Source: Flavobacteriales bacterium | Lineage (GTDB): Bacteria > Bacteroidota > Bacteroidia > Palsa-965 | DNA: 64,000 bases | Reading direction: 5' to 3' | Assembly: GCA_040377305.1 (NCBI GenBank) | Contig: JBEIPA010000014.1 | Location: 64,001-128,000 of the forward strand | Part shown: positions 19,977 to 33,402 of the stretch, piece after piece | Layout of the letters: each line of letters opens with the position of its first letter | Numbering within the stretch: the stretch's first letter is position 1 | Position numbers and translations under genes: made by a program | Notes under the pieces: generated by a model | The model's database searches: none | What the model was told of the DNA's origin: nothing | The model's input: the letters and a program-made list of their open reading frames with translations, nothing else

Positions 19977-20299
19977 TACGGATTCTTCATCGTTTCGCCC
20001 GCAACAGATCCGTTCTGATCAATGCACTGACCCTCTTTCAATGAAAAGCGTACGCCGTCTTTAGAGATGACCGTACCATCGGGTTTGATTGTGCTTCCGT
20101 TTTTCAGGAATACATCTCCCGTGATTTCTTTCCCGTCGAAAAGGACAACCATTTTTCCGTCTCGCATTCTCGCACAATATTGTCCTGGCTCGTCTGCAGA
20201 GAACTCGGTTTTAACAACTCGAGTATTCGCATCGTATGCGTAAGCCGCACCTGTTGAAAGCATTGCTCCTAATGACCAAATGAATAATCGATTTTTCAT
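19973..20299 (-). CDS. DUF6799-like small secreted protein
   Basis: MRDGKM...L.NG..I.PDGTV...DG....LKEGQCID pattern. Confidence 0.65.
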   Translation of the reverse strand: MKNRLFIWSLGAMLSTGAAYAYDANTRVVKTEFSADEPGQYCARMRDGKMVVLFDGKEITGDVFLKNGSTIKPDGTVISKDGVRFSLKEGQCIDQNGSVAGETMKNPY

Positions 20300-20427
20300 G
20301 ACCGTTTTGCTTTAGTTTGTACTTGTAATGGTCGCAAAATCGTGCCGTAAGAAAAAGGAGGGAAAACGTTCGGTAACAAGGGGTTTTTCGCTTCCTGTCG
20401 TGCAGGAGTGTTGACCTTACTCCACAA

Positions 20428-20463
20428 AAAAAGCGTCCCGTCAGTTTAAATTGCCGGGACGCC
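20428..20463 (-). terminator. Intrinsic terminator
   Basis: gcgtcccg...cgggacgc hairpin with A-tract on + strand. Confidence 0.65.
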
Positions 20464-20485
20464 TTAATTGTAATTATCGTGAAGA

Positions 20486-21055
20486 CTATTCGTAAGGCTC
20501 TTCGAAGTAAATCAGGATGTAACCTGCTTCGCTGTCGATCATGCGCTGAGTAGTAACTTCTGTTTTTTGTCCGCCGATTTCAGCAGTCCAGAGGTACTCT
20601 TCCCAATCTTTGTCATCAGTGCGTTTACCTTTGCCATATTTCGCATCGAAATTTGCAACGATGTCTTTGTACAGCTCTTCACCTGATTGTGCGTCAGGCA
20701 TAGTGATGTCCAAATGCACTTTCCAGACCTTCTTTGTGTCTGAATCATAAGCGTACTCGAGCATATACTCGTGATCGTACTCTTCAGTTCCCAGCTTGTA
20801 TAGGTAAGTGAGGTAACCGTCTTCGTCGCTGTCAGCAACTTCACTTCCGTGTTTTTTGCGGACATCATCGATAGACATACCTATAACAGCGCCATTCTCA
20901 AGAATAGTTGTGTTGCTGAAATGTAGTTTAGCGAAATCTGCAGATTTAGCTGCTGGAACTGTTACCGTGCTCTCTTCAGCATCTCCGGTTTTTTCGCCGC
21001 TTCCGCCGCATGCGATCAATGCGCAAAGTGGAAGTGCAAGTAGTAGATTTTTCAT
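20486..21055 (-). CDS. Hypothetical lipoprotein
   Basis: MKNLLL...LIAC lipobox. Confidence 0.65.
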   Translation of the reverse strand: MKNLLLALPLCALIACGGSGEKTGDAEESTVTVPAAKSADFAKLHFSNTTILENGAVIGMSIDDVRKKHGSEVADSDEDGYLTYLYKLGTEEYDHEYMLEYAYDSDTKKVWKVHLDITMPDAQSGEELYKDIVANFDAKYGKGKRTDDKDWEEYLWTAEIGGQKTEVTTQRMIDSEAGYILIYFEEPYE

Positions 21056-21363
21056 TTTCGGTTTTGATTTTGCTGCAAATGTACGAGCCACCACGACATA
21101 CGCCAATATTTATTCATAAATGGGTTCGCTTGATTGACCGTTACTGCTGCACATTTAACAAATGAAATTGCCAATTCGCCCATTTTGAAAGACTTGGGGT
21201 GAATCCAGATAACCGTAGTCCCAAAGGCTGGCACCTTGTATTCATGTTTATTCCGCTGATTTCAAAAGGAACCGGGCTGATGATTCCTTTAATCTCGCTG
21301 CATGCGGGTGGATTGTTCAGCATTTCCTGGGATTTCAATCTGAGGTTTTATCCAGTGATCGTC

Positions 21364-21882
21364 CTATTCAAGTTTCTCGATGCGCGCTACTTTGAAAATA
21401 TAAAGCATGCGGTCATCCCACACTTTTCCGGTTACACGCACCTTATCACCATGAACGATTTCGTTCCCACTATTGTCGTAAATCAATAGATCCTTGTCTT
21501 CGTAATCTTCCGGAATGGGTGCCATGGTGTTTTCGCAATCGCCTTCCCAAATCATCATGGTTACGTAGTCTCCTTCCATTGTTGAATCCTGTTTAAGATT
21601 CACGAGATACGTTCCGCTGTTCAGGTAAGTCATATTAGGCATTTCCGCATAACCTTCGAAGGTTACAAGTTCTTCCTTCGCAGGATAATTTGCGGCCGTA
21701 TCCCATTCGAGTGGCGTGCCGTGTGCAACCTTTGCAGGGCCTCCAGGACAAACTTCTTCTTCAGGCGTCTTGTGTACAGCAGGTTTGTCGTTGCAGTTTG
21801 CCCAGATTAAACCCGTTGTAATTCCACCAACAACGATCAATGCCATGATAAATCGGACGATAGCTTGTGCTTTGCTTTCCAT
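21364..21882 (-). CDS. Hypothetical membrane-anchored protein (possible OB fold)
   Basis: N-terminal TM; GDKVRVTGKV near the C terminus. Confidence 0.55.
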   Translation of the reverse strand: MESKAQAIVRFIMALIVVGGITTGLIWANCNDKPAVHKTPEEEVCPGGPAKVAHGTPLEWDTAANYPAKEELVTFEGYAEMPNMTYLNSGTYLVNLKQDSTMEGDYVTMMIWEGDCENTMAPIPEDYEDKDLLIYDNSGNEIVHGDKVRVTGKVWDDRMLYIFKVARIEKLE

Positions 21883-21903
21883 ATTCCAGATATTTAGTTT
21901 GTT

Positions 21904-22455
21904 CTACTGTTCAGTACCATGAAGCCAGAATCGCGATACTGGTTTACTGCCGCGTTCATCTATATTTTTGTCTATCTCTTCGTCAAAGAAATAATAAATT
22001 CTGTTTCCGGGAAGCGAAAAACTTTGGCAGGACCATGCTTGAATTGGAATTACTTCACTGCTTCCGCTATTCCCACTTAGTGTGTAAATGATTTCCTCCA
22101 GCAAAAGCGTGTTGAATGAATTATTGATAATCATCACCGAATCGGAATCATAGGTTTTTGTTATCTCGTTTCCATCGGCGAGCATATAACTGAAAGTTCC
22201 GAAAGCGCGGTAAGTAGAAACTTCATTCTCTGCGTCAACAATATACAGTCGCCCGACTCCGAACATCAGTCCCGCAAACAATACACCTGCAAGAAATAGT
22301 CCGACCACAAAACCCTGGCGGCTTTTCATTTTTGTCCGGATGAACCACGAAACACCCCAGAAAATTGCGATGGTAAAAAGTGAGACGAGAATAGTGTAAA
22401 TGATATTGTTGATCAGCATGCAGGCAAAAGGTATAAAAAAAGGTCCAGACAACAC
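21904..22455 (-). CDS. Hypothetical membrane protein
   Basis: Two N-terminal TM segments. Confidence 0.55.
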   Translation of the reverse strand: MLSGPFFIPFACMLINNIIYTILVSLFTIAIFWGVSWFIRTKMKSRQGFVVGLFLAGVLFAGLMFGVGRLYIVDAENEVSTYRAFGTFSYMLADGNEITKTYDSDSVMIINNSFNTLLLEEIIYTLSGNSGSSEVIPIQAWSCQSFSLPGNRIYYFFDEEIDKNIDERGSKPVSRFWLHGTEQ

Positions 22456-22475
22456 CAGGTCATCCGGACTCTTTT
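22436..22475 (-). terminator. Terminator after rtcB (end of the Ro60 operon)
   Basis: ggtccaga...tccggact imperfect hairpin with flanking A7 tract. Confidence 0.5.
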
Positions 22476-22481
22476 CATTCT

Positions 22482-23885
22482 TTACCCATCCATTCGCACG
22501 ATACGCGGACTGAACTTTCCTACGATGTCGACTAAATCAACTTGCGCCTCCATCACCTGAAAAATGTCTTTGTACGCATGTGGCGATTCATCCAGACCAC
22601 CACCGATTAACGTCACGTTATTTTCTTTCAGCACAGATTTCATCTCTGCATTCGTTACGTTTTTCATTGCTGCTGTACGCGACATTTTACGTCCCGCTCC
22701 ATGAGAAGCAGAGTTGATGGAAATGCTCGCACCTTTTCCGCGTACAATGAATCCCGGTGCAGTCATCGATCCCGGAATAATTCCGAGAACGCCTTTGCCG
22801 GCAGGTGTTGCACCTTTACGATGCACGATTACATCTTTGCCGTTGAATTTTTCTTTCCATGCAAAGTTGTGGTGGTTTTCTACCATCGCGATGGGTTCAA
22901 CACCAAGCGCAGCTGCAATCTTCTCGTGAATTTTGTGATGACACGCCGAAGCATAATCACCAGCGAGATTCATTGCAAGCCAATACTCTTGTCCTTCCTG
23001 AGTTGAAAGATCAAGCCACGCAAGATGTTTTGCTTCCTGCGGCAAACGACATTTCTCCATTGCCACTTTCGTGTAATGGTTCGCAATCGTTGCGCCAAGT
23101 CCGCGCGAACCGGAATGCGACAACAACGCGAGGTATCGACCTAATGGAAGATTGAACTCGTTGTTCTCATCGCTGATATCAACAACTCCGAATTCCACAA
23201 AGTGATTTCCCGAACCGGATGTTCCCATTTGCTTCACTGCTTTCAGCTGCAGACCTTTCAGCAATGGAATTTCATCGAACAACTTTCGGTCAGTCACTTC
23301 AAACTCTTTGTTCTCCTTGAACTCTTGTCCTGAACCAAAGAGTGTATTATCCGTAAGCACTTTGTAAAGTCCGCGCGAGTCGGTGTCGATGATCTCGTGC
23401 GGAGTCGGAAAAATACTCAGGCACATTCGGCAACCGATGTCGACGCCAACTCCATAAGGAATAATTGCGTTTTCCGTAGCGAGTACACCACCGATCGGCA
23501 ATCCATAACCCTGATGCGCATCCGGCATCAAAGCACCGGCAACTGCAACCGGCAAACGAATTGCCACATCCATTTGTTTACGCGCACCATCTTCGATCTG
23601 ATCTCCACCGTAAATTGCGTAAGATCCTTGTTCGATGCGCAATGCAATTTCGGGACCTTCCGCTTCTTTCGGCTTTTCCGTCAACGCATCCGCAATCGCA
23701 GCGAGGTTCGTGTCGTCGAGATAATCCGCAGGTGCAGCAAGAATATTTTTCAGCATCTCCATCACATCTTCACGTGATGATTTGCGGTAATACTTTTCAA
23801 TGATGTTGAGGGCAATTCCCACAACGCGTCCTTGTTTGTATCCAAGTTCGCGAAGGTGATCTCCGGTGATGTTTAATTTGTTCAT
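22482..23885 (-). CDS. rtcB: RtcB RNA ligase (copy 1)
   Basis: MPDAH.GYGLPIGG, VGVDIGC, GNHFVE, HSGSRG, HNFA, HRKGAT, SHGAGR. Confidence 0.95.
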   Translation of the reverse strand: MNKLNITGDHLRELGYKQGRVVGIALNIIEKYYRKSSREDVMEMLKNILAAPADYLDDTNLAAIADALTEKPKEAEGPEIALRIEQGSYAIYGGDQIEDGARKQMDVAIRLPVAVAGALMPDAHQGYGLPIGGVLATENAIIPYGVGVDIGCRMCLSIFPTPHEIIDTDSRGLYKVLTDNTLFGSGQEFKENKEFEVTDRKLFDEIPLLKGLQLKAVKQMGTSGSGNHFVEFGVVDISDENNEFNLPLGRYLALLSHSGSRGLGATIANHYTKVAMEKCRLPQEAKHLAWLDLSTQEGQEYWLAMNLAGDYASACHHKIHEKIAAALGVEPIAMVENHHNFAWKEKFNGKDVIVHRKGATPAGKGVLGIIPGSMTAPGFIVRGKGASISINSASHGAGRKMSRTAAMKNVTNAEMKSVLKENNVTLIGGGLDESPHAYKDIFQVMEAQVDLVDIVGKFSPRIVRMDG

Positions 23886-24514
23886 TTTACTAATTGTATT
23901 TCTTGTGTAACATAAATTCGAGGTTGTTCAACTTTATTTGTTGACTCGAATTTCATAGCGATGATTTCTTCGCAAGCGCGAGTAATGTGCACAACCATTT
24001 CATCGACATTAATATTTAATATCCCGTCTGCACGAAGAATTGTACCTCCACCTTGCGCATGTGAAAACCTGAGTTTGCCCTTTGGGGCAAAACAGTGAAC
24101 TAAGCCGCATCGCATTTCATCATATAGATCAAATGTTCCATTGGATTCTGCTTTTAAATACGCTCGATAATCCTTAAGAGATGCGAGATTCCGAATGGAG
24201 CGCTCAAAGTCCTCACGAACAGTGCCCGATTTATCCCAAACTGTTGGGGAATTTTCATTTATACACTTTCCGAAGAATTCAATTGCCGAACTCATGCAAA
24301 TTGCCCCGAGCCATGGCGATACTTTAACCACAGCTTGCATTTCGTCAATAAGTACAGTCCGCATAAATTGCTTAGTTGGAATGGGCATCTGCACAACAAA
24401 ATGTGATTTATCATCAGTAAAGCCAAAGACAACATTTTTCATTTGTTCATCCGTGAAAAGGTGCTTTCGTTGAAACTCTTGAAGGATCGATTGAACTGAT
24501 ATTTCTTTCATCAT
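23882..24514 (-). CDS. Putative HEPN-domain protein
   Basis: Helical ORF with AIEFFG and RCGLVH (Rx4H); 4-nt overlap with the rtcB start. Confidence 0.55.
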   Translation of the reverse strand: MMKEISVQSILQEFQRKHLFTDEQMKNVVFGFTDDKSHFVVQMPIPTKQFMRTVLIDEMQAVVKVSPWLGAICMSSAIEFFGKCINENSPTVWDKSGTVREDFERSIRNLASLKDYRAYLKAESNGTFDLYDEMRCGLVHCFAPKGKLRFSHAQGGGTILRADGILNINVDEMVVHITRACEEIIAMKFESTNKVEQPRIYVTQEIQLVK

Positions 24515-24552
24515 GATTATTCTATACTAATCAATTTACAAAATTTGTTTTG

Positions 24553-24623
24553 ACGACCGACAGGGATTCGAACCCCGATCCTCAGATTCGTATTCTGAGA
24601 TTCTTCCGTTGAACTATCGATCG
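24553..24623 (-). tRNA. tRNA-Arg(ACG), atypical
   Basis: CGATCGA/TCGGTCG acceptor, TCAGA-ATACGAA-TCTGA anticodon arm, GGTTCGAATCC. Confidence 0.85.
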
Positions 24624-24656
24624 AAATACAGTGTCGGGATACGATCCCGACACCTC

Positions 24657-24788
24657 ACAGGCAAAAAGCGAAAAGAGACTGTTTGCATTGCTCTACCACT
24701 GAGCTACACACAACTTTCGCTATGTGGCCGGATTCGAACCGGCGTCCCATGGATTGGAAGTCGAAGTAACTCTTTTCTACGGCACTGT
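24657..24788 (-). ncRNA. Y RNA (YrlA-like) with circularly permuted tRNA domain (Y1)
   Basis: 5' GTGCCGTA-GAAAAGAG-TTACTTC stem closed by CTCTTTTC; T arm precedes a GAAA-capped acceptor stem and a D arm (TAGCTCAGTGGTAGAGC); downstream of the TROVE gene. Confidence 0.85.
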
Positions 24789-24794
24789 TCATTG

Positions 24795-24868
24795 GGTGTT
24801 AGATCGGTTTCGATCCGATTACCTCTTGCTTCACAAGCAAGCGCTCTCCCGAGTGAGCTACAAACACC
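24795..24868 (-). tRNA. tRNA-His(GTG)
   Basis: G-1:C73, CTTGC-TTGTGAA-GCAAG arm, unusual T loop ATCGAAA. Confidence 0.85.
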
Positions 24869-24873
24869 GTGTT

Positions 24874-24957
24874 CAGTAGGCAGTTTGGCAGTAGTGCAGT
24901 TGGCAGTCAAAATATAATTCTCTGACTGCCTACTGCCCAACTGCTTACTGCCTACTG
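24874..24957. repeat. CAGTAGG/CAGTTGG heptamer hairpin spacer
   Basis: Tandem cagtNgg units followed by their reverse complement. Confidence 0.8.
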
Positions 24958-24963
24958 TTCTTG

Positions 24964-25037
24964 TACTCTGTGTGGGATTCGAACCCACGTGATCTGGTCG
25001 AAAACCAGATATACTAGACCAACTATATGAACAGAGC
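24964..25037 (-). tRNA. tRNA-Glu(TTC)
   Basis: GCTCTGT/ACAGAGT acceptor, TCTGG-TTTTCGA-CCAGA arm, GTGGG-TTCGAAT-CCCAC. Confidence 0.88.
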
Positions 25038-25122
25038 CTGATTGATTTGCGGATGACGCGCCGGGTTCTCTCCTTTGGAGAGTTAGAGAGGCGCGGCGCG
25101 TAATCCGCAAATCAATCTTCAG

Positions 25123-25196
25123 TCGCGACAGCAGGATTCGAACCTACATCTTCTCCAGTCCAAGTGGAGAGGCTTAGCCAATTAGCCGACCTCGCG
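25123..25196 (-). tRNA. tRNA-Pro(TGG)
   Basis: C1-G72, A73, CTCCA-CTTGGAC-TGGAG arm; one acceptor mismatch. Confidence 0.82.
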
Positions 25197-25285
25197 ATGT
25201 TGATTAGCTGATTTTTAATTTCTGATTTCTGATGCTGAAAGGTGTTACCCCAAGAGCTAATCAAAAATCAGCTAATCCTATTTAT

Positions 25286-25390
25286 TGTGAGGAAAAAATC
25301 ACAGAAAAGACGAAAGCGCCATCTTTCGATGTCAGGATTCGAACCTGTTTCTTCCTGCCACGAAGTATCTCTTCTGTTACGTCACTCACA
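25286..25390 (-). ncRNA. Y-like RNA Y2 (T arm + short capped stem)
   Basis: GTGACGTA-ACAGAAGAG-ATACTTC stem; CAGG-TTCGAAT-CCTG; CATC-GAAA-GATG. Confidence 0.7.
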
Positions 25391-25421
25391 AACTCAAAGA
25401 ACAAATTCAATTTCAAAATAA

Positions 25422-25510
25422 GCGGGCAAAAGTCAATCAGAGTCTGCCGGGATTTGAACCCGCGTCTTTCGACTTTCTACCAAAGAAGTATCTCTGATTT
25501 ACGGCACCGT
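25422..25510 (-). ncRNA. Y-like RNA Y3 (T arm only)
   Basis: GTGCCGTA-AATCAGAG-ATACTTC paired with CTCTGATT; CGGG-TTCAAAT-CCCG. Confidence 0.7.
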
Positions 25511-25523
25511 TTACTTTTAACTA

Positions 25524-26051
25524 TTATCTCGTCGGGATCTTCAATCCCATTTTCTTCATCGCAAGCAATGCTTCTGCATTTCCGATTGCGTCGTTGACCG
25601 GGTTGTGATCATGACGCGTTTTGCGAAACAATCGCTTCCACTCGCTGTTCAGTCCTCCATCCATTTTCATTCCACAATACAGATCACCGATTCGTCTGCC
25701 TGAAAATCCAAACGGATTTTTTCCCAGGTAGAAATGGAAGTAATAATTAATCCACTGCCAATCGAACGCGAGGTTATCGCTGATGAATATTGCTTTGCCG
25801 TCGGATGTTGCGTTCAACCATTCGGAGAAACGTTTCATCACTTCGGCGGGCTCCTCGAACGACTCGTGTTGCCCGCGTGTGAAACCACTTACTGCAAGTG
25901 CATCCGGAATCCATTCTTTGGAAATTGGTTGCGTCTTTCCGTAGAATGTTTTCGCGAGTGTGGGTTCTATCACCACTGCACCGAAGCAAACCATCGAATA
26001 TTTATTTGGGATGGGCCCATCGGCCTCTACATCCACTACTATGTAACTCAT
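25524..26051 (-). CDS. DEDDh 3'-5' exo(ribo)nuclease
   Basis: VDVEADG (ExoI), DNLAFD (ExoII), HNPVNDA (ExoIII). Confidence 0.85.
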   Translation of the reverse strand: MSYIVVDVEADGPIPNKYSMVCFGAVVIEPTLAKTFYGKTQPISKEWIPDALAVSGFTRGQHESFEEPAEVMKRFSEWLNATSDGKAIFISDNLAFDWQWINYYFHFYLGKNPFGFSGRRIGDLYCGMKMDGGLNSEWKRLFRKTRHDHNPVNDAIGNAEALLAMKKMGLKIPTR

Positions 26052-26083
26052 TTTGTTTTTGTTTTTAATCAATTTAATAATTT

Positions 26084-26156
26084 AAGCTGGCAACAAACTC
26101 GCAGAGGTTTTGGTCTAATTAACAGTTAGAAGTAACTCTGCAATACGGCACAGCTT
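26084..26156 (-). ncRNA. Y-like RNA Y4 (minimal, anticodon stem-loop cargo)
   Basis: GTGCCGTA-TTGCAGAG-TTACTTC stem with CTCTGCGA; TCTAA-CTGTTAA-TTAGA hairpin. Confidence 0.7.
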
Positions 26157-26214
26157 GCCGATGTGCCGATTTCCAATATGCCAATATGCCGATTGGAAAT
26201 ACCTCAATAAAATT

Positions 26215-26332
26215 CGGAAGCAAAAAACGATTCGGGTGGGGCGTCGCAATGAGGATTTGCACCTCTTCCTGGTTTTTACATCAGGACCCTTGCCCCCTGT
26301 CGAGCGAAGTATCCCGGCTCTACGGCATTCCG
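26215..26332 (-). ncRNA. Y-like RNA Y5
   Basis: ATGCCGTA-GAGCCGGG-ATACTTC, terminal CGGAA/TTCCG pairing, GAGG-TGCAAAT-CCTC T-loop-like hairpin. Confidence 0.62.
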
Positions 26333-26335
26333 TTT

Positions 26336-26421
26336 CAGTAGGCCGTTTGGCAGGCGTTCAGTAGGCAGTCAAAATTTATTCCTAATGACTGCCGACTGCA
26401 CTACCGCACTACTGCCTACTG
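26336..26421. repeat. CAGTAGG heptamer hairpin spacer
   Basis: Same family as 24874-24957. Confidence 0.75.
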
Positions 26422-26427
26422 ATTAAA

Positions 26428-26645
26428 CAACGGTAACTGGCAACAAGTCTGCTTTCTGCTTTCACAGAATACGGCCGTCCTATTTCTGTATTGCTACAGA
26501 CAGTTGACTGGTAATCATCATCCGCATGGTGTCAGGATCTGAAATCCTGATACTGCGCACTCAGATTAACGTTCGCGAACCACAGTTACCCGTGCATCAC
26601 TACCTTAGGACCGTTATCGAAGTATGACCCGTTTACGACACGTTG
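26428..26645 (-). ncRNA. Y-like RNA Y6 with 23S rRNA H69/H70-like cargo
   Basis: CAACG/CGTTG ends, GTGTCGTA-AACGGGTC-ATACTTC paired with GACTTGTT; cargo contains ATAACGGTCCTAAGGTAG and CGGCCGTA. Confidence 0.65.
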
Positions 26646-26766
26646 TGTGATGTCAGGATCCTATCCTGACAGTGCACATAATTTTTTCAAAGAACGTTTG
26701 TACTAACCAAGCCGTCGGGCGACCTCTCCTTCAGTGCAATTTCCGAAGGAGAGGCGTAGCCGTAAA

Positions 26767-28281
26767 CTACAACTCGAGTTGTTTTATCATCGCGATTGCA
26801 TCTGTACCGTTTTCTGCAGCATACAATACGTCGAACACTTTATCTGACCAGCCCGCGATGAGTGTTACATCGTCGCGCTGCACACTGATTGGTGTGTTAC
26901 CGTAACCTGCGAGGTCGAACAAGTACAGTTTCGCCATTGGCGCAATCTGTTTGTATTCTTTCCACGCCGTCTGCAACGAATCACCGTCAGCTTTGGTATT
27001 CCACATCTGGCAGTCAGTGAACATCATCACTTTGTCCATCACAACATTGCGCTGAACAAGATCTTTGATCACCAGGTAACCATTTGTGGCGTAACCAACT
27101 TCACCTTCCCGCTTGTAGTACTCATCAACATTCGCAAGTACTCCACGGTTAGGCATGTTGATTACCTTCCAGCGATCTCCGAACATTCCGGAAACCACTC
27201 GTTCACACTTGCTCTGCATCAGCATACCCAGTACCAGACCGATATCGAACAAATACACTTTGCTCTTCGCCGAGATTGGTTTCTGCATTGAACCCGAAAC
27301 GTCACACGCAATCAACACACGTGTTTTGTAATCGAATCCGCTGATGTTTTTCGCTGAAGCTACAATTGCATCTTCCAGCGCGTTAAGTATCATCGACACG
27401 TAATCAGCTTTCAGCACTTTCACTTCACGGTATGCAGACAGGAAACGGAATGGCAACTGCTTCGATTTCGCAACCTGGTTTGCATCAGAAAGCGTATCAC
27501 ACACTTTTTTGATTGCATCCCATGATACACCCGCTTCAATCATGTTACGGATGTTACGCAACATCGCCATGTATCCCAGCTTACCGCTGAAGATCAGTTC
27601 TTCCCATTTCGCACGAACCGCAAGCTCTTTTGCTTTTGCATCAGCGAATTTTTGCTGACCCAAAGCAGAAAGTTCAGTTTCCCAGGTATAAGCAACAGAC
27701 AGCTCTTTCGCAGCGATCTTGTTGAAGACTGCTTGCTGTTCATCACTTTTCGCTTTCGGGTGAACAAGGAACAATGCATCACGCAACGTTACTGCCGCTT
27801 CACGGTTGTATTTCGAGAACTGGTATTCATCAAAACGATTGAACGCCTTTGCGAGTCCTTTCTGTACCTGTTTCGAAAGCTTGTTCAGTTTCTTAGTTCC
27901 CGAACGGTTGTTCGCCAGTTGGTAGTAAGCCAGAAGCTCAGTGATCTCATCAGCACGCTGAACGACACCGTTCACCGCTTTGGATACAACTATATTTCCG
28001 GAGTTACGTTTTGCAAGTTCGACTGCAAGCACCTGTGGAATAGAACGCATGTACATTTTGTTACGTGCATACACCGCAAGCTTCGCCACGAATTCAGCAT
28101 CTGTCTTCTCCATGAGATCCACGATACGTTGAAGACGCTCGTTTCCTTTCTCATAGAACGAATCGCTCAGTCCTGCGGTTACTACCGCTGAATACAGTTC
28201 GAGCTCAGGAGTCATTGCGAATGCTTTTGCGCCTTCGTAATTAGTGACTGCTGTTTTACGTTTGAAGATGTTGAATTTCAT
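26767..28281 (-). CDS. rsr: Ro60/Rsr TROVE-domain RNA-binding protein with vWA domain
   Basis: NYEGAKAF, FDEYQFSKY, YTWETELS, LGYMAMLRN, QLPFRF, DVSGSM MIDAS, FTDCQ. Confidence 0.93.
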   Translation of the reverse strand: MKFNIFKRKTAVTNYEGAKAFAMTPELELYSAVVTAGLSDSFYEKGNERLQRIVDLMEKTDAEFVAKLAVYARNKMYMRSIPQVLAVELAKRNSGNIVVSKAVNGVVQRADEITELLAYYQLANNRSGTKKLNKLSKQVQKGLAKAFNRFDEYQFSKYNREAAVTLRDALFLVHPKAKSDEQQAVFNKIAAKELSVAYTWETELSALGQQKFADAKAKELAVRAKWEELIFSGKLGYMAMLRNIRNMIEAGVSWDAIKKVCDTLSDANQVAKSKQLPFRFLSAYREVKVLKADYVSMILNALEDAIVASAKNISGFDYKTRVLIACDVSGSMQKPISAKSKVYLFDIGLVLGMLMQSKCERVVSGMFGDRWKVINMPNRGVLANVDEYYKREGEVGYATNGYLVIKDLVQRNVVMDKVMMFTDCQMWNTKADGDSLQTAWKEYKQIAPMAKLYLFDLAGYGNTPISVQRDDVTLIAGWSDKVFDVLYAAENGTDAIAMIKQLEL

Positions 28282-28327
28282 GACTGTTTGTTTTAATTGT
28301 TATTGACGCTGCAAATGTTTTACTCAT

Positions 28328-28348
28328 CTACGCAATGGTCTTGCGCAG
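28328..28348. promoter_or_regulatory. Candidate WYL-regulator operator (site 1)
   Basis: CTACGCAA-N5-TTGCGCAG just upstream of the TROVE gene. Confidence 0.6.
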
Positions 28349-28434
28349 TTCGATTTATTTTAACTTTTTGTTTTAATCGCCTGATTTTCAGTTGGCATTA
28401 ATTCGTTTTTTCAATCGCAACATTTATTGCGGCG

Positions 28435-28507
28435 TTGGAAAGGAAGGGCTCGAACCTTCGACCTTGTGCGTATAAGGCACGTGCTCTTACCACTGAGCTA
28501 CTCTCCA
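28435..28507 (-). tRNA. tRNA-Ile(TAT)
   Basis: TGGAGAG/CTTTCCA acceptor, GTGC-CTTATAC-GCAC arm, canonical D and T arms. Confidence 0.82.
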
Positions 28508-28514
28508 AGTCTTG

Positions 28515-28586
28515 CGGCGCGGATTGGACTTGAACCAATATAATCTCCCTTAACAGGGGAGAGCTCTACCATTGAGCTACCAGGCC
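28515..28586 (-). tRNA. tRNA-Asn(GTT)
   Basis: CTCCC-CTGTTAA-GGGAG arm, G73; one acceptor mismatch. Confidence 0.85.
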
Positions 28587-28591
28587 ATTTG

Positions 28592-28664
28592 CGGTAACGA
28601 TGGGATTCGAACCCACAACTTTCCGATAGACAATCGGACGCTCTAGCCGTTGAACTACGCTACC
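28592..28664 (-). tRNA. tRNA-Asp(GTC)
   Basis: GGTAGCG/CGTTACC, TCCGA-TTGTCTA-TCGGA arm, G73. Confidence 0.87.
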
Positions 28665-28669
28665 ATTTG

Positions 28670-28742
28670 TGGACAAGGAAGGAATTGAACCTTCATCTTC
28701 TGATCTTCAGTCAGCCGCATTCACCGCGTTTGCTACCTGTCC
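28670..28742 (-). tRNA. tRNA-Phe(GAA)
   Basis: GGACAGG/CTTGTCC, CTGA-CTGAAGA-TCAG arm. Confidence 0.85.
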
Positions 28743-28748
28743 GTTTTG

Positions 28749-28822
28749 TTGACCCACCAGGGCTCGAACCTGGAACCCCCACTTTAAAAGAGCGGTGCAT
28801 CTAACCATTGAGCTATGGATCA
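28749..28822 (-). tRNA. tRNA-Lys(TTT)
   Basis: TGATCCA/TGGGTCA, CCGCT-CTTTTAA-AGTGG arm. Confidence 0.85.
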
Positions 28823-28835
28823 ATATTTCTTCGCT

Positions 28836-28891
28836 TGTCCTCCTTCGGCAAAGCCTGTGCTGAGCGAAGTCGAAGTGCTCAGTCTGACAAG
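28836..28891. repeat. REP-like element (CTGAGCGAAGTCGAAG family)
   Basis: ctgagcgaagtcgaag core; inverted relative cttcgactacgctcag at about 28988-29003. Confidence 0.6.
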
Positions 28892-28894
28892 TCG

Positions 28895-28965
28895 TTGTCG
28901 GAAATGGATTTGAACCACTATAGCCAGATTCAAACTCTGGTGTCCTACCATTAGACGATCCGACA
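28895..28965 (-). tRNA. tRNA-Gln(TTG)
   Basis: TGTCGGA/TCCGACA, CCAGA-GTTTGAA-TCTGG arm. Confidence 0.87.
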
Positions 28966-29010
28966 TTCAGTGTGTTTTCTTGTCATTCTTCGACTACGCT
29001 CAGTATGACA

Positions 29011-29041
29011 ATAAAAAAACCCGGTCGTGTGCGGACCGGGT
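29011..29041 (-). terminator. Attenuator terminator 2
   Basis: ACCCGGTC-loop-GACCGGGT followed by a T tract on - strand. Confidence 0.85.
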
Positions 29042-29064
29042 CTAACAAATCAGTTCAACTGATT

Positions 29065-29154
29065 TCAGTTATGACAACATCGGTCCACGAATTTTCCTTT
29101 CTGAAAATCTCGTTCGCTAAAATTGGGCAAGGCTATATAACTATGTTTCTTCAT
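29065..29154 (-). CDS. Leader peptide 2 (MKKHSYIALPNFSERDFQKGKFVDRCCHN)
   Basis: 29-aa ORF ending just before the terminator; contains GGACCG complementary to the terminator 5' arm. Confidence 0.7.
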   Translation of the reverse strand: MKKHSYIALPNFSERDFQKGKFVDRCCHN

Positions 29155-29252
29155 GGTGTTTCTTTCTCTTCAACTTTTTTATTGTCAGGCCGAGTAGTCA
29201 TTGCAGTCTGCGGAGCAACTTGTGCTTGAAGATCGACGTACCGAGGTCGGGC

Positions 29253-29282
29253 AATAAAAAAGCCCCGAATCTCTCCGGGGCT
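29253..29282 (-). terminator. Attenuator terminator 1
   Basis: AGCCCCGG-loop-TCGGGGCT followed by TTTTTATT. Confidence 0.85.
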
Positions 29283-29307
29283 TTACTTCAGTTATATCCT
29301 AAAGCAA

Positions 29308-29385
29308 TTACACCCCGTGCAACAGACGATCTCCTTCGAGATTTATCTGTTTGCGTGTTTGCGGATATGTAAAATGCTTTTTCAT
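29308..29385 (-). CDS. Leader peptide 1 (MKKHFTYPQTRKQINLEGDRLLHGV)
   Basis: 25-aa ORF after a TATATTTG promoter; ends in CGGGGT complementary to the terminator 5' arm. Confidence 0.7.
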   Translation of the reverse strand: MKKHFTYPQTRKQINLEGDRLLHGV

Positions 29386-29404
29386 TTTTCTTCTTATTCT
29401 GCGA

Positions 29405-29412
29405 CAAATATA
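29405..29412 (-). promoter_or_regulatory. Bacteroidota -7 promoter element TATATTTG
   Basis: Matches the TAnnTTTG consensus, about 20 nt upstream of leader 1. Confidence 0.65.
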
Positions 29413-29489
29413 TTGTAAAGAAATAATGCGATCCAAATTATTCTGCAATTATTTTTCATGATTTGCAGTATTTACTTCACTTTGTCCAA

Positions 29490-29510
29490 CTGCGCAAATA
29501 CATTGCGCAG
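29490..29510. promoter_or_regulatory. Candidate WYL-regulator operator (site 2)
   Basis: Perfect CTGCGCAA-N5-TTGCGCAG 35 nt upstream of the WYL gene. Confidence 0.65.
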
Positions 29511-29545
29511 ATAATTCTATCTTAGATGAGCCAATCACGCACATC

Positions 29546-30574
29546 ATGCCGATAAACAAACTCGCACTCATCCGCTACAAGACAATTGATAACTGTCTGC
29601 AGAACCGTTTCCGCAAATGGACACTTGACGATCTAGTGGATGCATGCTCGCGTACACTGGAAGAGTTCGAAGGAATTACACAAGGAGTAAGCAAGCGTAC
29701 TGTTCAGCTCGATATTCAGACGATGCGCAGTGAAAAGCTAGGATACAATGCTCCTATTGTGGTCAGCGACAAGAAGTATTATTCGTACGAAGACAAGAAT
29801 TACAGCATCACGAATATTCCGTTGACGAGTCAGGATTTAGGAACGCTCACGGAAGTTGTAGATATTCTACGCCAGTTTAAAGGGTTCGGTTACTTCGAAG
29901 AGCTCAGCACAATGGTGAACAAGCTCGAGGACAAAGTGCAGTCTCAGAAGAACAAAGGTCGCTCGTATATACACTTTGAGAAAAATGATTTGCTAAAAGG
30001 TCTCGAGTACATCGAATCATTGCACAAGGCGATCATTCGTCAGAAAACGATTGACGTATTATATCAGTCGTTCAAAGCACGTGAAGCGACAAGCATCATT
30101 TTTCATCCTTATCTGCTCAAGGAATACCGCAACCGCTGGTTTGTGATCGGCTCAACGCAAAAGAAAACAATTCTTACTCTGGCACTGGATAGAATTTTTT
30201 CTGTGAAAGAAGTCGGTGGAGAGAAATACATCAAGAATACCTTCTTTGATGTTGACTCGTACTTTGATGATACGATTGGCGTTACGAAGAATCTCGGGAT
30301 TCGACCACAATTGGTCGTGATGAAAATTGATCGTACGAATGCGCCATACGTAATCACAAAACCGATTCACCACACGCAGAAGATTCTGAAGACAGAACCC
30401 GACGGAATGATTTTCAGTATTAACGTGACGTGGAATTTTGAGTTGGAAAGAGAAATCCTTGGGTTTGGTGAACAGATAAAGGTGTTATCGCCAAAGAGAT
30501 TGCAGAATAAGATTAGCTGGAGGGTGAAGAGGATGGTGGAGAGGTATGAGGAACTTCAACCAAATGAACGATGA
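29546..30574 (+). CDS. wHTH-WYL-WCX transcriptional regulator
   Basis: N-terminal HTH (VSKRTVQLDIQTMR), HPYLLKEYRNRWFV and LALDRI WYL motifs, VLSPKRL tail. Confidence 0.92.
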   Translation: MPINKLALIRYKTIDNCLQNRFRKWTLDDLVDACSRTLEEFEGITQGVSKRTVQLDIQTMRSEKLGYNAPIVVSDKKYYSYEDKNYSITNIPLTSQDLGTLTEVVDILRQFKGFGYFEELSTMVNKLEDKVQSQKNKGRSYIHFEKNDLLKGLEYIESLHKAIIRQKTIDVLYQSFKAREATSIIFHPYLLKEYRNRWFVIGSTQKKTILTLALDRIFSVKEVGGEKYIKNTFFDVDSYFDDTIGVTKNLGIRPQLVVMKIDRTNAPYVITKPIHHTQKILKTEPDGMIFSINVTWNFELEREILGFGEQIKVLSPKRLQNKISWRVKRMVERYEELQPNER

Positions 30575-31659
30575 GCGGCAAAGTAAATTCATTTCACGAA
30601 GCAGTTCGAACGAGACCTGGCATGTATATTGGCAGATTGGGTCCCGCTGGTTTCGGTTATCTTGTCAGCGAACTGATTAGAGATTTTGCTGCTGACCTGC
30701 AAGCAAAAGAAGCGCATGTGAGGATCGACATAAAAGGGAAGGTCACAATTAAATTTCCCGAAATAAATTGCACTCAGGCTGACCTTTATACTTTAATAAA
30801 AAATGGTCGGATGAGTCGCAGTTCTTCATTTTGGAGGACATCACTTGCCATTATCCCGCCGTTATCAAAAGCGACCACGCTCAAAATCGGAAGCACTAAG
30901 TATACTGTCAGCCGCAACGCTAAACTTAATCCTCACTTCGAGTCCGATACCGCTAAAGCTATTTCACGATTTGAAATAACCTTTCAACCGGATGCAGGTA
31001 TTCTCAAAGCCAAAGCGCCTGAAATACTTACTTTATGTGCTCGCTTGCATGAGCTCACGGTGGTTTGTCCCGGATTAAAAATCACTTACCGTGATGACAA
31101 TACAAAACCATTTACGCAAATGGTCTGGCATACTCCTGAAGGAATACGCACACTATTGGCGCCGGCACGAAATATGTTTTATGAAAAGAAATTAGAAGGA
31201 GGTTTTTCCTTTAACGAAAAAGGACTACGCGGTGAGGTGTACTGGTTATGTGCAAACGGGGGATGTGATCCTATCTATTCATTTGCTAACGGTGAACGTA
31301 CTGTGAAAGGCGGATCGCATGTGAAAGGATGCGTACAAGGTATACTGGACGCGTTGAAGGATTTAGTCAAAGGAAATGGCGAGAAATATGACTTCAGTGT
31401 GTCTCGTGCAATCCGACATCAATGTCTCGTAGTTTCCGTTTGGGGAAACGGCCTAAGCTATGCGGGCAGTACAAAAGAATGTCTGGAACATAAACCTACA
31501 AACCAAATTCTCCGCAAACTTGTTGGTGCGCACATGGAGCAGCTGTGTGCGTCGAATCCAAAGGATGCTATACAACTTACGTATCGGTTGCAGAAATGGA
31601 ATCTTGCGGAGATGTATCCTGAATTGTATTCCGGAAAATCAAGGAAAAAGAAGAAGTAA
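30571..31659 (+). CDS. Stand-alone degenerate GyrB/ParE N-terminal (GHKL + transducer)-like protein
   Basis: EAVRTRPGMYIG, SFANGERTVKGGSHVKG, YAGSTKECL; no TOPRIM domain. Confidence 0.75.
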   Translation: MSGKVNSFHEAVRTRPGMYIGRLGPAGFGYLVSELIRDFAADLQAKEAHVRIDIKGKVTIKFPEINCTQADLYTLIKNGRMSRSSSFWRTSLAIIPPLSKATTLKIGSTKYTVSRNAKLNPHFESDTAKAISRFEITFQPDAGILKAKAPEILTLCARLHELTVVCPGLKITYRDDNTKPFTQMVWHTPEGIRTLLAPARNMFYEKKLEGGFSFNEKGLRGEVYWLCANGGCDPIYSFANGERTVKGGSHVKGCVQGILDALKDLVKGNGEKYDFSVSRAIRHQCLVVSVWGNGLSYAGSTKECLEHKPTNQILRKLVGAHMEQLCASNPKDAIQLTYRLQKWNLAEMYPELYSGKSRKKKK

Positions 31660-31660
31660 G

Positions 31661-32293
31661 ATGAAAATCATAGCCATTTCAGATACACACGGTCAGCATG
31701 GGAAGGTTGTGCTACCGGAAGGTGATGCGATTATTCACGCTGGTGATGTTTCCGTACGTGGAACTGAATCGCAGATCGTCGATTTCATCAACTGGTTTTC
31801 GGGACTGAACTATCGGTACAAGATTTTCATTGCGGGCAATCATGACTTCTTCTTCGAAAGAGAGTCACAGGAGAAAATCAAATCTCTGATTCCCGAGAAC
31901 GTTATATACCTGAACGATTCCGGTATTGAACTAGAAGGAATCAAAATCTGGGGCTCGCCGATTCAACCCTGGTTTCAGGACTGGGCGTTTAATCGGCAGA
32001 GAGGAATTGATATTCGTAAACACTGGGACATGATTCCGGGTGACACGGATATACTCATCACTCACGGGCCAGCGAAAGGAATTCTCGATCGCTTGGTTTA
32101 CGGAGAAGAAGTTGGTTGTGTTGATCTTCTTGACGCGGTTAACAGAATCAATCCCGCCTTTCATGTCTTCGGCCACATTCATGAAGGATACGGAGAGCAT
32201 CAAGAAGGGAAAACTAAATTCATTAACGCTGCCGTTCTCAATGAAGATTATTTCCTCGCGAATTCACCAATAGCATTTGAGTTCCTAAAATAA
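31661..32293 (+). CDS. Calcineurin-like metallophosphoesterase
   Basis: SDTH, HAGD, AGNHD, THGP, GHIH. Confidence 0.92.
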   Translation: MKIIAISDTHGQHGKVVLPEGDAIIHAGDVSVRGTESQIVDFINWFSGLNYRYKIFIAGNHDFFFERESQEKIKSLIPENVIYLNDSGIELEGIKIWGSPIQPWFQDWAFNRQRGIDIRKHWDMIPGDTDILITHGPAKGILDRLVYGEEVGCVDLLDAVNRINPAFHVFGHIHEGYGEHQEGKTKFINAAVLNEDYFLANSPIAFEFLK

Positions 32294-32294
32294 G

Positions 32295-32380
32295 TTGGGT
32301 AGGCCGGATTCGAACCGACATGTTTAGCACGTGGCAGCAGATTTACAGTCTGCCCCCTTCACCAGTTTGGATACTACCCA
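32295..32380 (-). tRNA. tRNA-Tyr(GTA) copy A
   Basis: TGGGTAG/CTACCCA, GCAGA-CTGTAAA-TCTGC, long variable region. Confidence 0.87.
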
Positions 32381-32384
32381 GTTT

Positions 32385-32455
32385 CAGTAAGCAGTTGTGC
32401 AGTTGGCGGTATCATAATTTGACTGCTTGCTGCCAGGCTGCACTACTGCCTACTG
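32385..32455. repeat. CAGTAAG/CAGTTG heptamer hairpin spacer
   Basis: Same family; duplicated together with tRNA-Tyr. Confidence 0.75.
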
Positions 32456-32461
32456 TTTCAG

Positions 32462-32544
32462 CGGAAGATATAGGAGTCGAACCCTGTCCTTTCGGACCGC
32501 CCCAGATTTCAAGTCTGGTTGACCACCATCGGTCGCTATCTTCC
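32462..32544 (-). tRNA. tRNA-Ser(TGA), non-canonical cloverleaf
   Basis: 8-bp GGAAGATA/TATCTTCC acceptor, G73, CCAGA-CTTGAAA-TCTGG, GTCC-GAAA-GGAC variable arm, short T stem. Confidence 0.75.
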
Positions 32545-32552
32545 AATAATTG

Positions 32553-32640
32553 CGGAGAACATTGGAATTGAACCAATAGTTCACTTTCGCGAACGCACAT
32601 TAGCAGTGTGCTGCAACGAGCCAATAGTTGCCTGCTCTCC
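32553..32640 (-). tRNA. tRNA-Ser(GCT), atypical
   Basis: GGAGAGC/GTTCTCC, G73, GCACA-CTGCTAA-TGTGC, 6-bp variable arm, A8, 5-bp D stem. Confidence 0.82.
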
Positions 32641-32643
32641 TTA

Positions 32644-32725
32644 CAGTAGGCAGTTGGGCAGTCGTTCAGTAGTCAGTCAAGTATTTTTTTGACTGCCTAC
32701 TGCCAAACTGCATTACTGCTTACTG
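32644..32725. repeat. CAGTAGG heptamer hairpin spacer
   Basis: Same family. Confidence 0.75.
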
Positions 32726-32731
32726 GCAAAG

Positions 32732-32805
32732 TACTCCGAAGCAGATTCGAACTGCTACTTAACGGGGCTTAACGCCGTTGTCTCTTCCAGTTGGACTACC
32801 GGAGT
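32732..32805 (-). tRNA. tRNA-Leu(TAA), short variable loop
   Basis: ACTCCGG/TCGGAGT, loop GTTAAGC, A73. Confidence 0.75.
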
Positions 32806-32814
32806 AAAAATTAG

Positions 32815-32900
32815 TTGGGTAGACAGGATTCGAACCTGTACGTTTAGCACATGGCAGCAGATTTACAGTCTGCCCCCTTCACCAGTTTGGATACTACCCA
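32815..32900 (-). tRNA. tRNA-Tyr(GTA) copy B
   Basis: Near-identical to copy A with compensatory T-stem changes. Confidence 0.87.
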
Positions 32901-32904
32901 GTTT

Positions 32905-32980
32905 CAGTAGGCAGTAAGCAGTTGTGCAGTTGGCAGTATCATAATTTGACTGCTTACTGCACACTGCACTGCTGCCTACT
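32905..32980. repeat. CAGTAGG heptamer hairpin spacer
   Basis: Same family. Confidence 0.75.
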
Positions 32981-32987
32981 TCTTTCG

Positions 32988-33060
32988 TAGCGATAAAGAG
33001 ATTCGAACTCTTACTGAACGGTTTCTAAGACCGTTGCCTCTGCCGTTGGGCTACATCGCT
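32988..33060 (-). tRNA. tRNA-Leu(TAG), short variable loop
   Basis: AGCGATG/TATCGCT, ACGGT-CTTAGAA-ACCGT, A73. Confidence 0.83.
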
Positions 33061-33120
33061 ATTTTTTACACAACACTCTTCCACCTCCACATCGCGAATA
33101 TTTTTTCGCAACATGAACTA

Positions 33121-33154
33121 AAAACAAAAAGCCTCCTGATGTTTTCAGGAGGCT
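33121..33154 (-). terminator. Attenuator terminator 3
   Basis: AGCCTCCTGA-loop-TCAGGAGGCT followed by TTTTGTTTT. Confidence 0.88.
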
Positions 33155-33179
33155 CTCGTATACTGTATGATATTACAGA

Positions 33180-33260
33180 TTACACAATACAATCCTCCCT
33201 GTCATTCGTGAGTGAATAACTGCTCAATAAGAGGAGAGAATATGTGTTTACTGTTTTCAT
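33180..33260 (-). CDS. Leader peptide 3 (MKTVNTYSLLLLSSYSLTNDREDCIV)
   Basis: 26-aa ORF between a CACCTTTG promoter-like element and the terminator; CAGGGAGG can pair with the terminator 5' arm. Confidence 0.8.
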   Translation of the reverse strand: MKTVNTYSLLLLSSYSLTNDREDCIV

Positions 33261-33340
33261 TCTGATGCAAAGGTGAAACTTTTTTTCAATCGCTCCGACA
33301 TGAAGTGGAAAATATTTTTTTGATGCGTGAAAACTAAAAC

Positions 33341-33348
33341 TACATTTG
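33341..33348 (+). promoter_or_regulatory. Bacteroidota -7 promoter element TACATTTG
   Basis: TAnnTTTG consensus with upstream TTTG. Confidence 0.6.
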
Positions 33349-33363
33349 CCGTGAAAGACAACC

Positions 33364-33402
33364 ATGAAGGAAGTCTTCAACCATCAACCGCTTCACTCTT
33401 GA
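33364..33402 (+). CDS. Putative leader peptide MKEVFNHQPLHS
   Basis: 12-aa ORF directly after the promoter, ahead of the RNA ligase operon. Confidence 0.45.
   Translation: MKEVFNHQPLHS

What the first reader, a model, noticed from the sequence alone, without database searches (positions are those of the whole stretch)
26428..26645. Y-like RNA whose cargo is a circularly permuted mimic of 23S rRNA helix 69/70
Seen: the first ncRNA after the Ro60 gene has the same terminal stem as the five other Y-like RNAs. Right after the shared TACTTC it reads ATAACGGTCCTAAGGTAG-TGA-TGCACG (minus strand of about 26591-26617). Near its 3' end it reads CGGCCGTA (26470-26477). Known: the conserved 23S segment is ...GGCGGCCGTAACTATAACGGTCCTAAGGTAGCGAAA...(H71)...CTGCACG (the I-CeuI site region). 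So 18 nt match exactly, H71 appears replaced by a GTGA tetraloop, and the 5' strand of H69 comes last but can still pair (GGCCGT/ACGGTC). The helix is opened in its loop, the same topology by which Y1 opens a tRNA at the anticodon loop. Weaker H68-like words (GAACGTTAA, CCAGTCAAC) lie between. Inference: a Ro60-bound rRNA mimic acting as decoy, sensor or adaptor for factors that bind or damage H69. The bacterial Y RNA mimics I know of are tRNA mimics.
Basis: partly seen in the sequence, partly recalled or inferred. Interest (0 to 1): 0.93.

Follow-up and report, generated by a model that had tools for sequence, protein, structure and literature searches.

The report
Ro60 RNA copying the ribosome interface
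Next to the gene for the RNA-quality-control protein Ro60 lies a conserved small-RNA gene whose middle is a shrunken, rearranged copy of the surface the large ribosomal RNA uses to meet the small subunit, likely held by Ro60 as bait for ribosome-binding factors, whereas the bacterial RNAs of this class described so far copy tRNA.

Summary
Window 26428-26645 (-), just after Ro60, shares its terminal stem with five sister Y-like RNAs. Its middle is a circularly permuted, trimmed 23S H67-H71 junction.

I aligned 47 distinct RNAs; named records include Bacteroidota, cyanobacteria and myxobacteria. 82.8% of cells pair (shuffles 70.9%, slid controls at most 47.3%). A profile of segments outside my search patterns ranks the true 23S sites 1 of 413,700. 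Two exclusive permutations occur: opened in the H69 loop (22) or below an intact loop (24). 33 of 47 lie beside a Ro60-like gene; three myxobacterial copies do not. It is a rare cargo (0 of 25 other Bacteroidia Ro60 loci).

Transcription, Ro60 binding and partners are untested. Best guess: a Ro60-held bait or tether in an RNA-repair locus. No Rfam family or paper was found. This scan already noted the family in three other genomes.

The parts
26428..26645 (-). Y-like RNA with permuted 23S H67-H71 cargo (ends predicted from the closing stem, not mapped)
   Evidence: fold -69.1 kcal/mol, z -2.2, 6 of 200 shuffles as good; homologues
26619..26645 (-). 5' half of the shared Y-type stem plus TACTTC linker
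   Evidence: shared with five sister RNAs
26598..26617 (-). 23S 1916-1935 copy: H69 3' strand and H70 5' part (E. coli numbering recalled)
   Evidence: 18 nt identical to relatives' 23S
26581..26594 (-). H71 copy: 5-bp hairpin with GYRA loop; 23S 1939-1944 and 1954-1956 absent
   Evidence: 4 of 5 pairs show two-sided changes; pair probability 1.0
26572..26576 (-). H70 3' strand copy (G1964, C1967-A1970)
   Evidence: both H70 pairs 100% paired in 47 RNAs; A1969 in 47 of 47; not part of the patterns
26509..26571 (-). variable arm capping H67; holds a 26-nt palindromic repeat (about 26528-26553) absent in three close homologues
   Evidence: the repeat core occurs 14 times in the genome; H67 register poorly aligned, 46% paired
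26477..26508 (-). H68 base (1835-1842 with 1898-1905) and a 6-bp stub in place of the long H68 arm
   Evidence: covariation; profile ranks the true 23S site 1 of 5034
26470..26476 (-). H69 5' strand (1906-1912), placed last by the permutation
   Evidence: pair probability 0.44-0.61 in the free ensemble; A-U and C-G swaps in homologues
26428..26468 (-). small extra hairpin and 3' half of the Y-type stem
26767..28281 (-). Ro60/Rsr gene (TROVE + vWA), 504 aa, directly upstream on the same strand
   Evidence: PF05731 E 2e-30; PF25045 E 3e-5, below its cut-off
26080..26330 (-). two sister Y-like RNAs (about 26215-26330 and 26080-26152)
   Evidence: shared stem
25285..25510 (-). two sister Y-like RNAs with T-loop-like hairpins (about 25420-25510 and 25285-25385)
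24659..24776 (-). YrlA-like tRNA-mimic RNA with the same stem
   Evidence: Rfam RF02553 39.8 bits, E 6e-6, below gathering 69
25524..26051 (-). 3'-5' exoribonuclease-like gene inside the RNA array
   Evidence: PF16473 E 1e-6
22482..23885 (-). RtcB RNA ligase gene
   Evidence: PF01139 E 3e-81
28434..28965 (-). six tRNA genes upstream of Ro60 (four more at 24552-25196, five at 32294-33060)
29546..30574 (+). divergently oriented WYL-WCX regulator
   Evidence: PF13280, PF25583
33507..35336 (+). RNA ligase gene and HD/AAA_33 (kinase-like) gene
   Evidence: PF09414, PF13671, PF01966

Best explanation
This element is a Y-like RNA gene beside Ro60 whose middle is a circularly permuted, trimmed copy of 23S rRNA helices 67-71 with covarying base pairs; it is likely transcribed, likely held by Ro60 through its terminal stem, and would present the large subunit's interface junction as a bait or tether that draws ribosome-binding factors to the RNA-repair machinery encoded around it. 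Shown: the copy, the permutation, the covariation, the shared stem and the gene neighbourhood. Inferred: transcription; Ro60 binding (from the stem shared with a YrlA-like RNA); a 23S-like three-dimensional fold; and the bait role (from the two-module design of known Y RNAs). The recognised feature is most likely the H69-base/H70/H71/H68-base junction, not the H69 loop. That junction is what both permutation types share, while the loop is missing in 22 of 47.
For: Structure: 82.8% of 1073 cells pair versus 70.9% in shuffles (0 of 500) and at most 47.3% in slid controls; 145 two-sided cells versus 53. The free fold of the window RNA gives H69, H70, H71 and the H68 stub. Segments outside the search patterns map to the right 23S sites: H68 5' arm rank 1 of 5034, joint rank 1 of 413,700. 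With a pattern that omits 1917-1928, 10 of 10 cyanobacterial hits still form all three lower H69 pairs, including A-U, C-G and G-C variants (read by eye). Unpaired positions outside the patterns are kept: A1969 in 47 of 47; A1912 in 16 of 22 loop-opened RNAs. 33 of 47 have a Ro60-like gene on the same strand; the cyanobacterial neighbour is Ro60-like by profile (97%, E 1.5e-11). The locus encodes RtcB, a second RNA ligase, a WYL regulator, an exonuclease and 15 tRNAs. Known Y RNAs tether Ro60 to an effector through a second module, and YrlA lacks the anticodon loop where the Ro60 module attaches (bioRxiv 10.1101/312249, passages).
Against: No test of expression, binding or partners was possible. 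Three myxobacterial copies have no Ro60 within 3.5 kb and no PF05731 match in their genomes (0 of 3); their distant look-alike protein scores only 41%. 11 of 47 lie on contigs too short to judge. The stem reads GNCGUA, not the published GNCGAA motif. No candidate partner gene is shared across loci. The RNA is dispensable for most Ro60 loci: 0 of 25 other Bacteroidia loci had it. Invariance of 1917-1935 in the 47 RNAs is partly imposed by my search patterns. Related sequences inflate the shuffle control, and H67 is weakly supported (46% paired).
Confidence: 0.45

Rival explanations
1. The RNA is a surrogate 50S face that docks by RNA-RNA contact on free 30S subunits (or on tRNA and tRNA-like Y RNAs). 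It would shield their exposed interface or deliver Ro60 and a ligase there.
For: The retained parts are the bridge-forming helices H67-H69 and H71 (recalled). A1912 and 1917-1919 are kept even when the loop is opened. Free subunits expose their interfaces to RNases in starvation (PMC4931109, passages). tRNA-like sister RNAs share the locus.
Against: A1913, a main 30S contact (recalled), is missing in 22 of 47. In those RNAs the Ro60 stem is attached at the tip that would touch the small subunit. No binding data.
Confidence: 0.22
2. The RNA is a sacrificial substrate or damage sensor: rRNA-cutting nucleases cut it instead of ribosomes, and the cut form is re-ligated or signals to the WYL regulator.
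For: 24 of 47 keep the exact H69 loop CGTAACTA. An H69-loop nuclease exists, though shown on eukaryotic ribosomes (PMC13189344, passages). Ligases and a WYL gene are neighbours.
Against: The window's type has no H69 loop to cut. The UUCCU segment, cut by MazF-type toxins and near the RNase E site at 1942 (PMC5408214, PMC4931109, passages), is absent in all 47. That count is biased, because the pattern excluded a full-length segment.
Confidence: 0.18
3. The sequence acts as DNA: a decoy or relic of the I-CeuI-type homing-endonuclease site, or a group I intron remnant.
For: 8 of 24 loop-intact members carry a 26-mer identical to this part of 23S. That this is the I-CeuI site and an intron hot spot is recalled. 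One 23S hit is interrupted here (L025).
Against: Loop-opened members lack the left half of the site. Distant pairs covary as RNA. No intron family matched in Rfam.
Confidence: 0.04
4. A neutral captured rRNA fragment kept 23S-like by gene conversion, or an assembly chimera.
For: Patchy distribution (1 of 401 class genomes by strict pattern). Both permutation types occur within one stem family, which recombination with rDNA could explain.
Against: Changes away from the 23S letters are compensated (G1922-C1908 becomes A-U in 5 of 7 cases with A1922). The same trimmed layout recurs in independent assemblies of several phyla. A 26-nt insertion in the window copy fell in the variable arm.
Confidence: 0.04

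Closest known systems
YrlA, the tRNA-mimic bacterial Y RNA (Rfam RF02553; PMC4201824; bioRxiv 10.1101/312249)
   Same: Encoded near Ro60 on the same strand. Terminal stem plus a cargo that copies a translation RNA opened at a functional loop. A YrlA-like RNA with the same stem lies in this locus.
   Different: The cargo copies 23S H67-H71, not tRNA. No D or T arm, and no RF02553 match at 26428-26645. Two permutation points exist. Ro60 binding not shown.
Deinococcus Yrn1-Rsr-PNPase (RYPER)
   Same: A Y RNA second module tethers an effector to Ro60; Rsr also acts in 23S maturation (PMC4201824, passages).
   Different: Yrn1 is modelled as tRNA-like; here the module is rRNA-like and the effector is unknown.
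rRNA-mimicking ribosomal-protein leader RNAs (recalled; a review title seen in a reference list)
   Same: A non-rRNA copies an rRNA site.
   Different: Those are cis elements of r-protein operons. This one sits in a Y-type stem within an RNA array, before another Y-like RNA and an exonuclease gene.
23S rRNA domain IV (H67-H71)
   Same: Sequence and pairing of the junction.
   Different: Order permuted; H67 capped; H68 cut to a stub; 1939-1944 and 1954-1956 deleted; about 130-200 nt core.

Membership tests
Bacterial Y RNAs | Encoded within about 4 kb of Ro60, same strand | tested here: met
   122 nt after the Ro60 stop in the window; 33 of 47 family members, 11 on short contigs, 3 without
Bacterial Y RNAs | 5' and 3' ends pair into a stem with the Ro60-binding motif (GNCGAAN0-1G in YrlA) | tested here: inconclusive
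   stem predicted; motif reads GNCGUA, the same variant as in the locus's YrlA-like RNA
Bacterial Y RNAs | Discrete transcript bound by Ro60 | not testable with these tools
   needs Northern or RNA-seq and co-IP
YrlA (RF02553) | tRNA-like module with D and T arms | tested here: not met
   no tRNA or RF02553 match at 26428-26645 at E up to 1
23S rRNA gene fragment or pseudogene | Colinear order with 23S and drift without compensation | tested here: not met
   order permuted; compensatory changes; no RF02541 match in the genome
Group I intron or other Rfam family | Match to a curated model | tested here: not met
   window 20000-34000 at E up to 1; 20 homologous loci at gathering score gave only tRNAs
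r-protein autoregulatory leader | Lies directly upstream of a ribosomal-protein gene | tested here: not met
   window neighbours; no r-protein family among 70 selected ORFs at homologous loci (70 of 150 listed)

The most novel reading that the evidence does not exclude
Bacteria encode stand-alone RNA copies of ribosomal functional surfaces. This Ro60-held mini-50S interface would dock on 30S subunits or on tRNA-mimic Y RNAs to build a dummy ribosome that traps ribosome-targeting factors. It would be one of a wider set of rRNA-site mimics in tRNA arrays; a GTPase-centre-like copy sits 300 nt away in L054.
Probability: 0.22. Interest if true: 0.96.

Novelty: new variant of a known kind. Interest (0 to 1): 0.86.

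Why it matters
The bacterial Y RNA cargos in the papers I read are tRNA mimics. An rRNA mimic widens Ro60 RNAs into a modular display system for translation-RNA surfaces, and it makes the open question of what Y RNA cargos recruit directly testable by pull-down. It also points to an unknown factor or damage that targets the H67-H71 junction. As a natural minimal version of this junction, it shows which nucleotides evolution keeps once the rest of the ribosome is gone, and it could serve as a small model for factor and antibiotic binding studies.

Tried and rejected

My idea that Bacteroidota members also copy H65/H66, or that the recurring CUCGY hairpin copies another rRNA site: not supported, the profiles did not rank those sites first. 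A sequence-only HMM of the 3' block did not hit 23S at E 1; only the position-weight test did.

A covariance model could not be calibrated in the time limit, so the family was collected by exact patterns and is under-counted. The genome scan required T at 1934 and missed all C versions.

Expression: no RNA holder was listed, which is no evidence either way. The promoter/terminator scan was at chance level (8 versus 7.4; 6 versus 5.5). Annotated phages gave no real match.

Viral scans gave one member (L096) and one doubtful stub (L053); L052, L138, L139, L150 and L151 were chance. One search had a spacing error and its two hits were chance.

Rows dropped before the 47: of 30 genome hits, 11 chance, 3 true 23S and 3 divergent (L030, L042, L051). 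Of 42 metagenome hits, 7 duplicates, 2 truncated (L061, L067) and 1 near-duplicate (L087, which has a changed H69 loop letter).

Literature: nine searches listed no rRNA-mimic Y RNA. The Sim and Wolin 2018 review was not held. One supplementary file of PMC4201824 could not be searched. Only the main text of PMC5737381 was searched.

Full report
OBSERVATION. The words are at the stated places on the minus strand: TACTTC 26624-26619, the 18-mer 26617-26600 and CGGCCGTA 26477-26470. The element starts 122 nt after the stop of a 504-aa TROVE/vWA gene. The assembly has no 23S of its own, so I used the rRNA operon of a same-genus relative (G010; L009 and L123). Helix names and E. coli numbers are recalled and were laid on that sequence from the anchor at 1917. 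Five further elements share the 5' stem and TACTTC; the last matches YrlA weakly (39.8 bits, gathering 69). No Rfam family matches 26428-26645 at E up to 1. Record titles of relatives point to Bacteroidia.

HOMOLOGUES. BLAST of 61 genomes found the RNA in 4 of 34 other genomes of the family. A 19-nt pattern that excludes normal 23S gave 30 genome hits: 13 members, 3 divergent candidates, 3 true 23S and 11 chance. A pattern adding the H71 loop gave 42 metagenome hits, of which 32 were kept after removing duplicates and truncated rows, and 1 viral-collection hit. With the window this makes 47 distinct RNAs. Named records include Bacteroidota, cyanobacteria and myxobacteria.

ANATOMY. Read 5' to 3', the RNA has these parts: Y stem; H69 3' strand and H70 (1916-1935); three nucleotides; an H71 hairpin with a GYRA loop; GCGA(A), the H70 3' strand; a variable arm closing H67; the H68 base 5' arm; a short H68 stub; the H68 base 3' arm; the H69 5' strand; Y stem. 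In 23S the order is H67, H68, H69, H70, H71, so the copy is circularly permuted. The distance from G1935 to the H71 loop is 8 in 44 of 47 RNAs versus 14 in 23S, and UUCCU is present in 0 of 47. The metagenome pattern excluded a full-length segment, so that count is biased.

STRUCTURE TESTS. On 23 pairs, 82.8% of 1073 cells pair. Shuffles give 70.9% (0 of 500 as high) and slid partners at most 47.3%. Cells with two-sided changes number 145 against 53. The pair-count measures are weaker (32 and 35 of 500), H67 is only 46% paired in this register, and related rows inflate the shuffle control. The long-range pair G1922-C1908 is G-C in 37, A-U in 5, G-U in 3 and unpaired in 2. The free fold of the window RNA gives H70, H71 and the stub at probability 0.93-1.0, H69 at 0.44-0.61, and two H68 pairs at only 0.06.

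Two tests avoid my pattern bias. First, weight matrices of the H68 arms, which were in no pattern, rank the true sites of a 5-kb rRNA operon first (1 of 5034; joint 1 of 413,700). Second, a pattern omitting 1917-1928 found 10 of 301 genomes of a cyanobacterial order (two of them were already in my set). All 10 form the three lower H69 pairs, among them A-U (2), C-G (2), G-C for G-U (3) and an A-U closing pair (1), read by eye.

TWO PERMUTATIONS. 22 RNAs, including the window's, end in CG(T)(A) and lack the H69 loop. 24 carry the intact loop CGTAACTA at the 5' side and stop after 1908. None has both and one has neither. Both types occur in Bacteroidota and within the cyanobacterial stem family. 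The part common to both is the lower H69/H70/H71/H68-base junction.

CONTEXT. 33 of 47 have a Ro60-like gene on the same strand within the fetched flank, 11 are on short contigs, and 3 myxobacterial copies have none within 3.5 kb and no PF05731 match genome-wide. The cyanobacterial 477-aa neighbour has no Pfam or NCBIfam match but aligns to Ro60 by profile (97%, E 1.5e-11). The cargo is rare in Bacteroidia. Ro60 was found in 27 of 401 class genomes (this tally includes G123, an unpublished genome). The strict pattern matched 1 of 401. Profiles found nothing in 25 fetched Ro60 loci, though most of these carry arrays of the same stem with other cargos. The window locus also holds RtcB, an RNA ligase, an HD/AAA protein, a WYL regulator, an exonuclease and 15 tRNAs.

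MECHANISM. Known Y RNAs use a stem to bind Ro60 and a second module to tether an effector; YrlA's module folds as tRNA lacking the anticodon loop (PMC4201824, passages and section 5; bioRxiv 10.1101/312249, passages). By that logic I commit to a Ro60-held bait or tether that shows the 50S interface junction to a factor that normally binds 23S there (0.45). Rough step odds: structural mimic 0.93, Ro60-bound transcript 0.8, protein bait rather than another use 0.6. The rivals are docking on 30S or tRNA (0.22), sacrificial substrate or sensor (0.18), DNA-level homing site (0.04) and neutral relic (0.04). The sacrificial reading is weakened because the window's type has no H69 loop and the family lacks the UUCCU stretch. 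That stretch is cut by MazF-type toxins (PMC5408214, passages) and lies at the RNase E site 1942 (PMC4931109, passages). An H69-loop nuclease is known, but on eukaryotic ribosomes (PMC13189344, passages).

KNOWN OR NEW. It works like a Y RNA and meets the position test. The motif test is inconclusive, binding is untestable here, and it fails the YrlA test. Twenty homologous loci gave only tRNA in Rfam. Nine paper searches (listings) showed no rRNA-mimic Y RNA. PMC8058203 had the phrase only in a reference title (passages). The main text of PMC5737381 lacks the terms, and the searchable supplements of PMC4201824 lack the motif, with one file not searched. Subscription papers and motif supplements that I could not see might describe it. 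This scan noted the same family in three other genomes. I had recorded my mapping before that look-up, and those notes are not independent evidence.

VERDICT. A real, conserved, covarying rRNA-mimic cargo on a Y-type stem, and a new variant of a known kind. Function is inferred. Interest 0.86.

Noticed in passing
L054:2074-2118; L134 and L135 at 1501-1537: A copy of the 23S GTPase-associated centre (H43 region; 38 of 46 nt, E 0.002) lies 300 nt from the H67-H71 mimic in a tRNA array. The same word occurs in tRNA arrays of two phage contigs, followed about 220 nt later by an H44-loop-like word. Possibly a second rRNA-site mimic; no Rfam match in L054 at gathering score.
   Followed up: partly
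L098-L121 (Ro60 loci of Bacteroidia): Most Bacteroidia Ro60 loci carry 2-7 RNAs with one shared stem (TGYCGTA...TACTTCG) and varied cargos: T-loop hairpins, partial tRNAs, and a recurring GGGG..AGGG..GAAGAGGTGCA type like window 26215-26330. Only one in the window matches Rfam YrlA, weakly.
   Followed up: partly
L034:822-2252, L058:2181-3611, L092:3729-5159: Cyanobacterial 477-aa protein missed by Pfam and NCBIfam but Ro60-like by profile, preceded by arrays of RNAs with their own shared stem. In two genomes an HNH gene lies upstream (for L034).
   Followed up: partly
L033, L035, L036; L131-L133: Myxobacterial copies stand alone in long GC-rich hairpins with no TROVE match in the genome. These genomes encode a 590-aa vWA protein weakly like the cyanobacterial Ro60-like protein.
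   Followed up: partly
window 24552-25196, 28434-28965, 32294-33060: Fifteen tRNA genes in three clusters flank the RNA-repair genes. They include Lys, Gln, Asn, Asp, His, Tyr and Arg species that are common nuclease targets (recalled), and an Ile-TAT call; possibly a spare-tRNA set.
   Followed up: no
window 26528-26553 and 26652-26672: A palindromic repeat (14 copies of its core in the genome) sits inside the RNA's variable arm and again just upstream of the RNA.
   Followed up: partly
L030, L042, L051, L053: Divergent look-alikes that keep 1916-1935 but not the GYRA hairpin. L030 lies between Ro60 and RtcB-RtcA genes; L053 is a viral contig with a family B polymerase.
   Followed up: no
window 30571-31659 and 23882-24514: A 362-aa gyrase-B-like gene after the WYL gene, and a 210-aa ORF without Pfam or NCBIfam match directly upstream of RtcB.
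   Followed up: no
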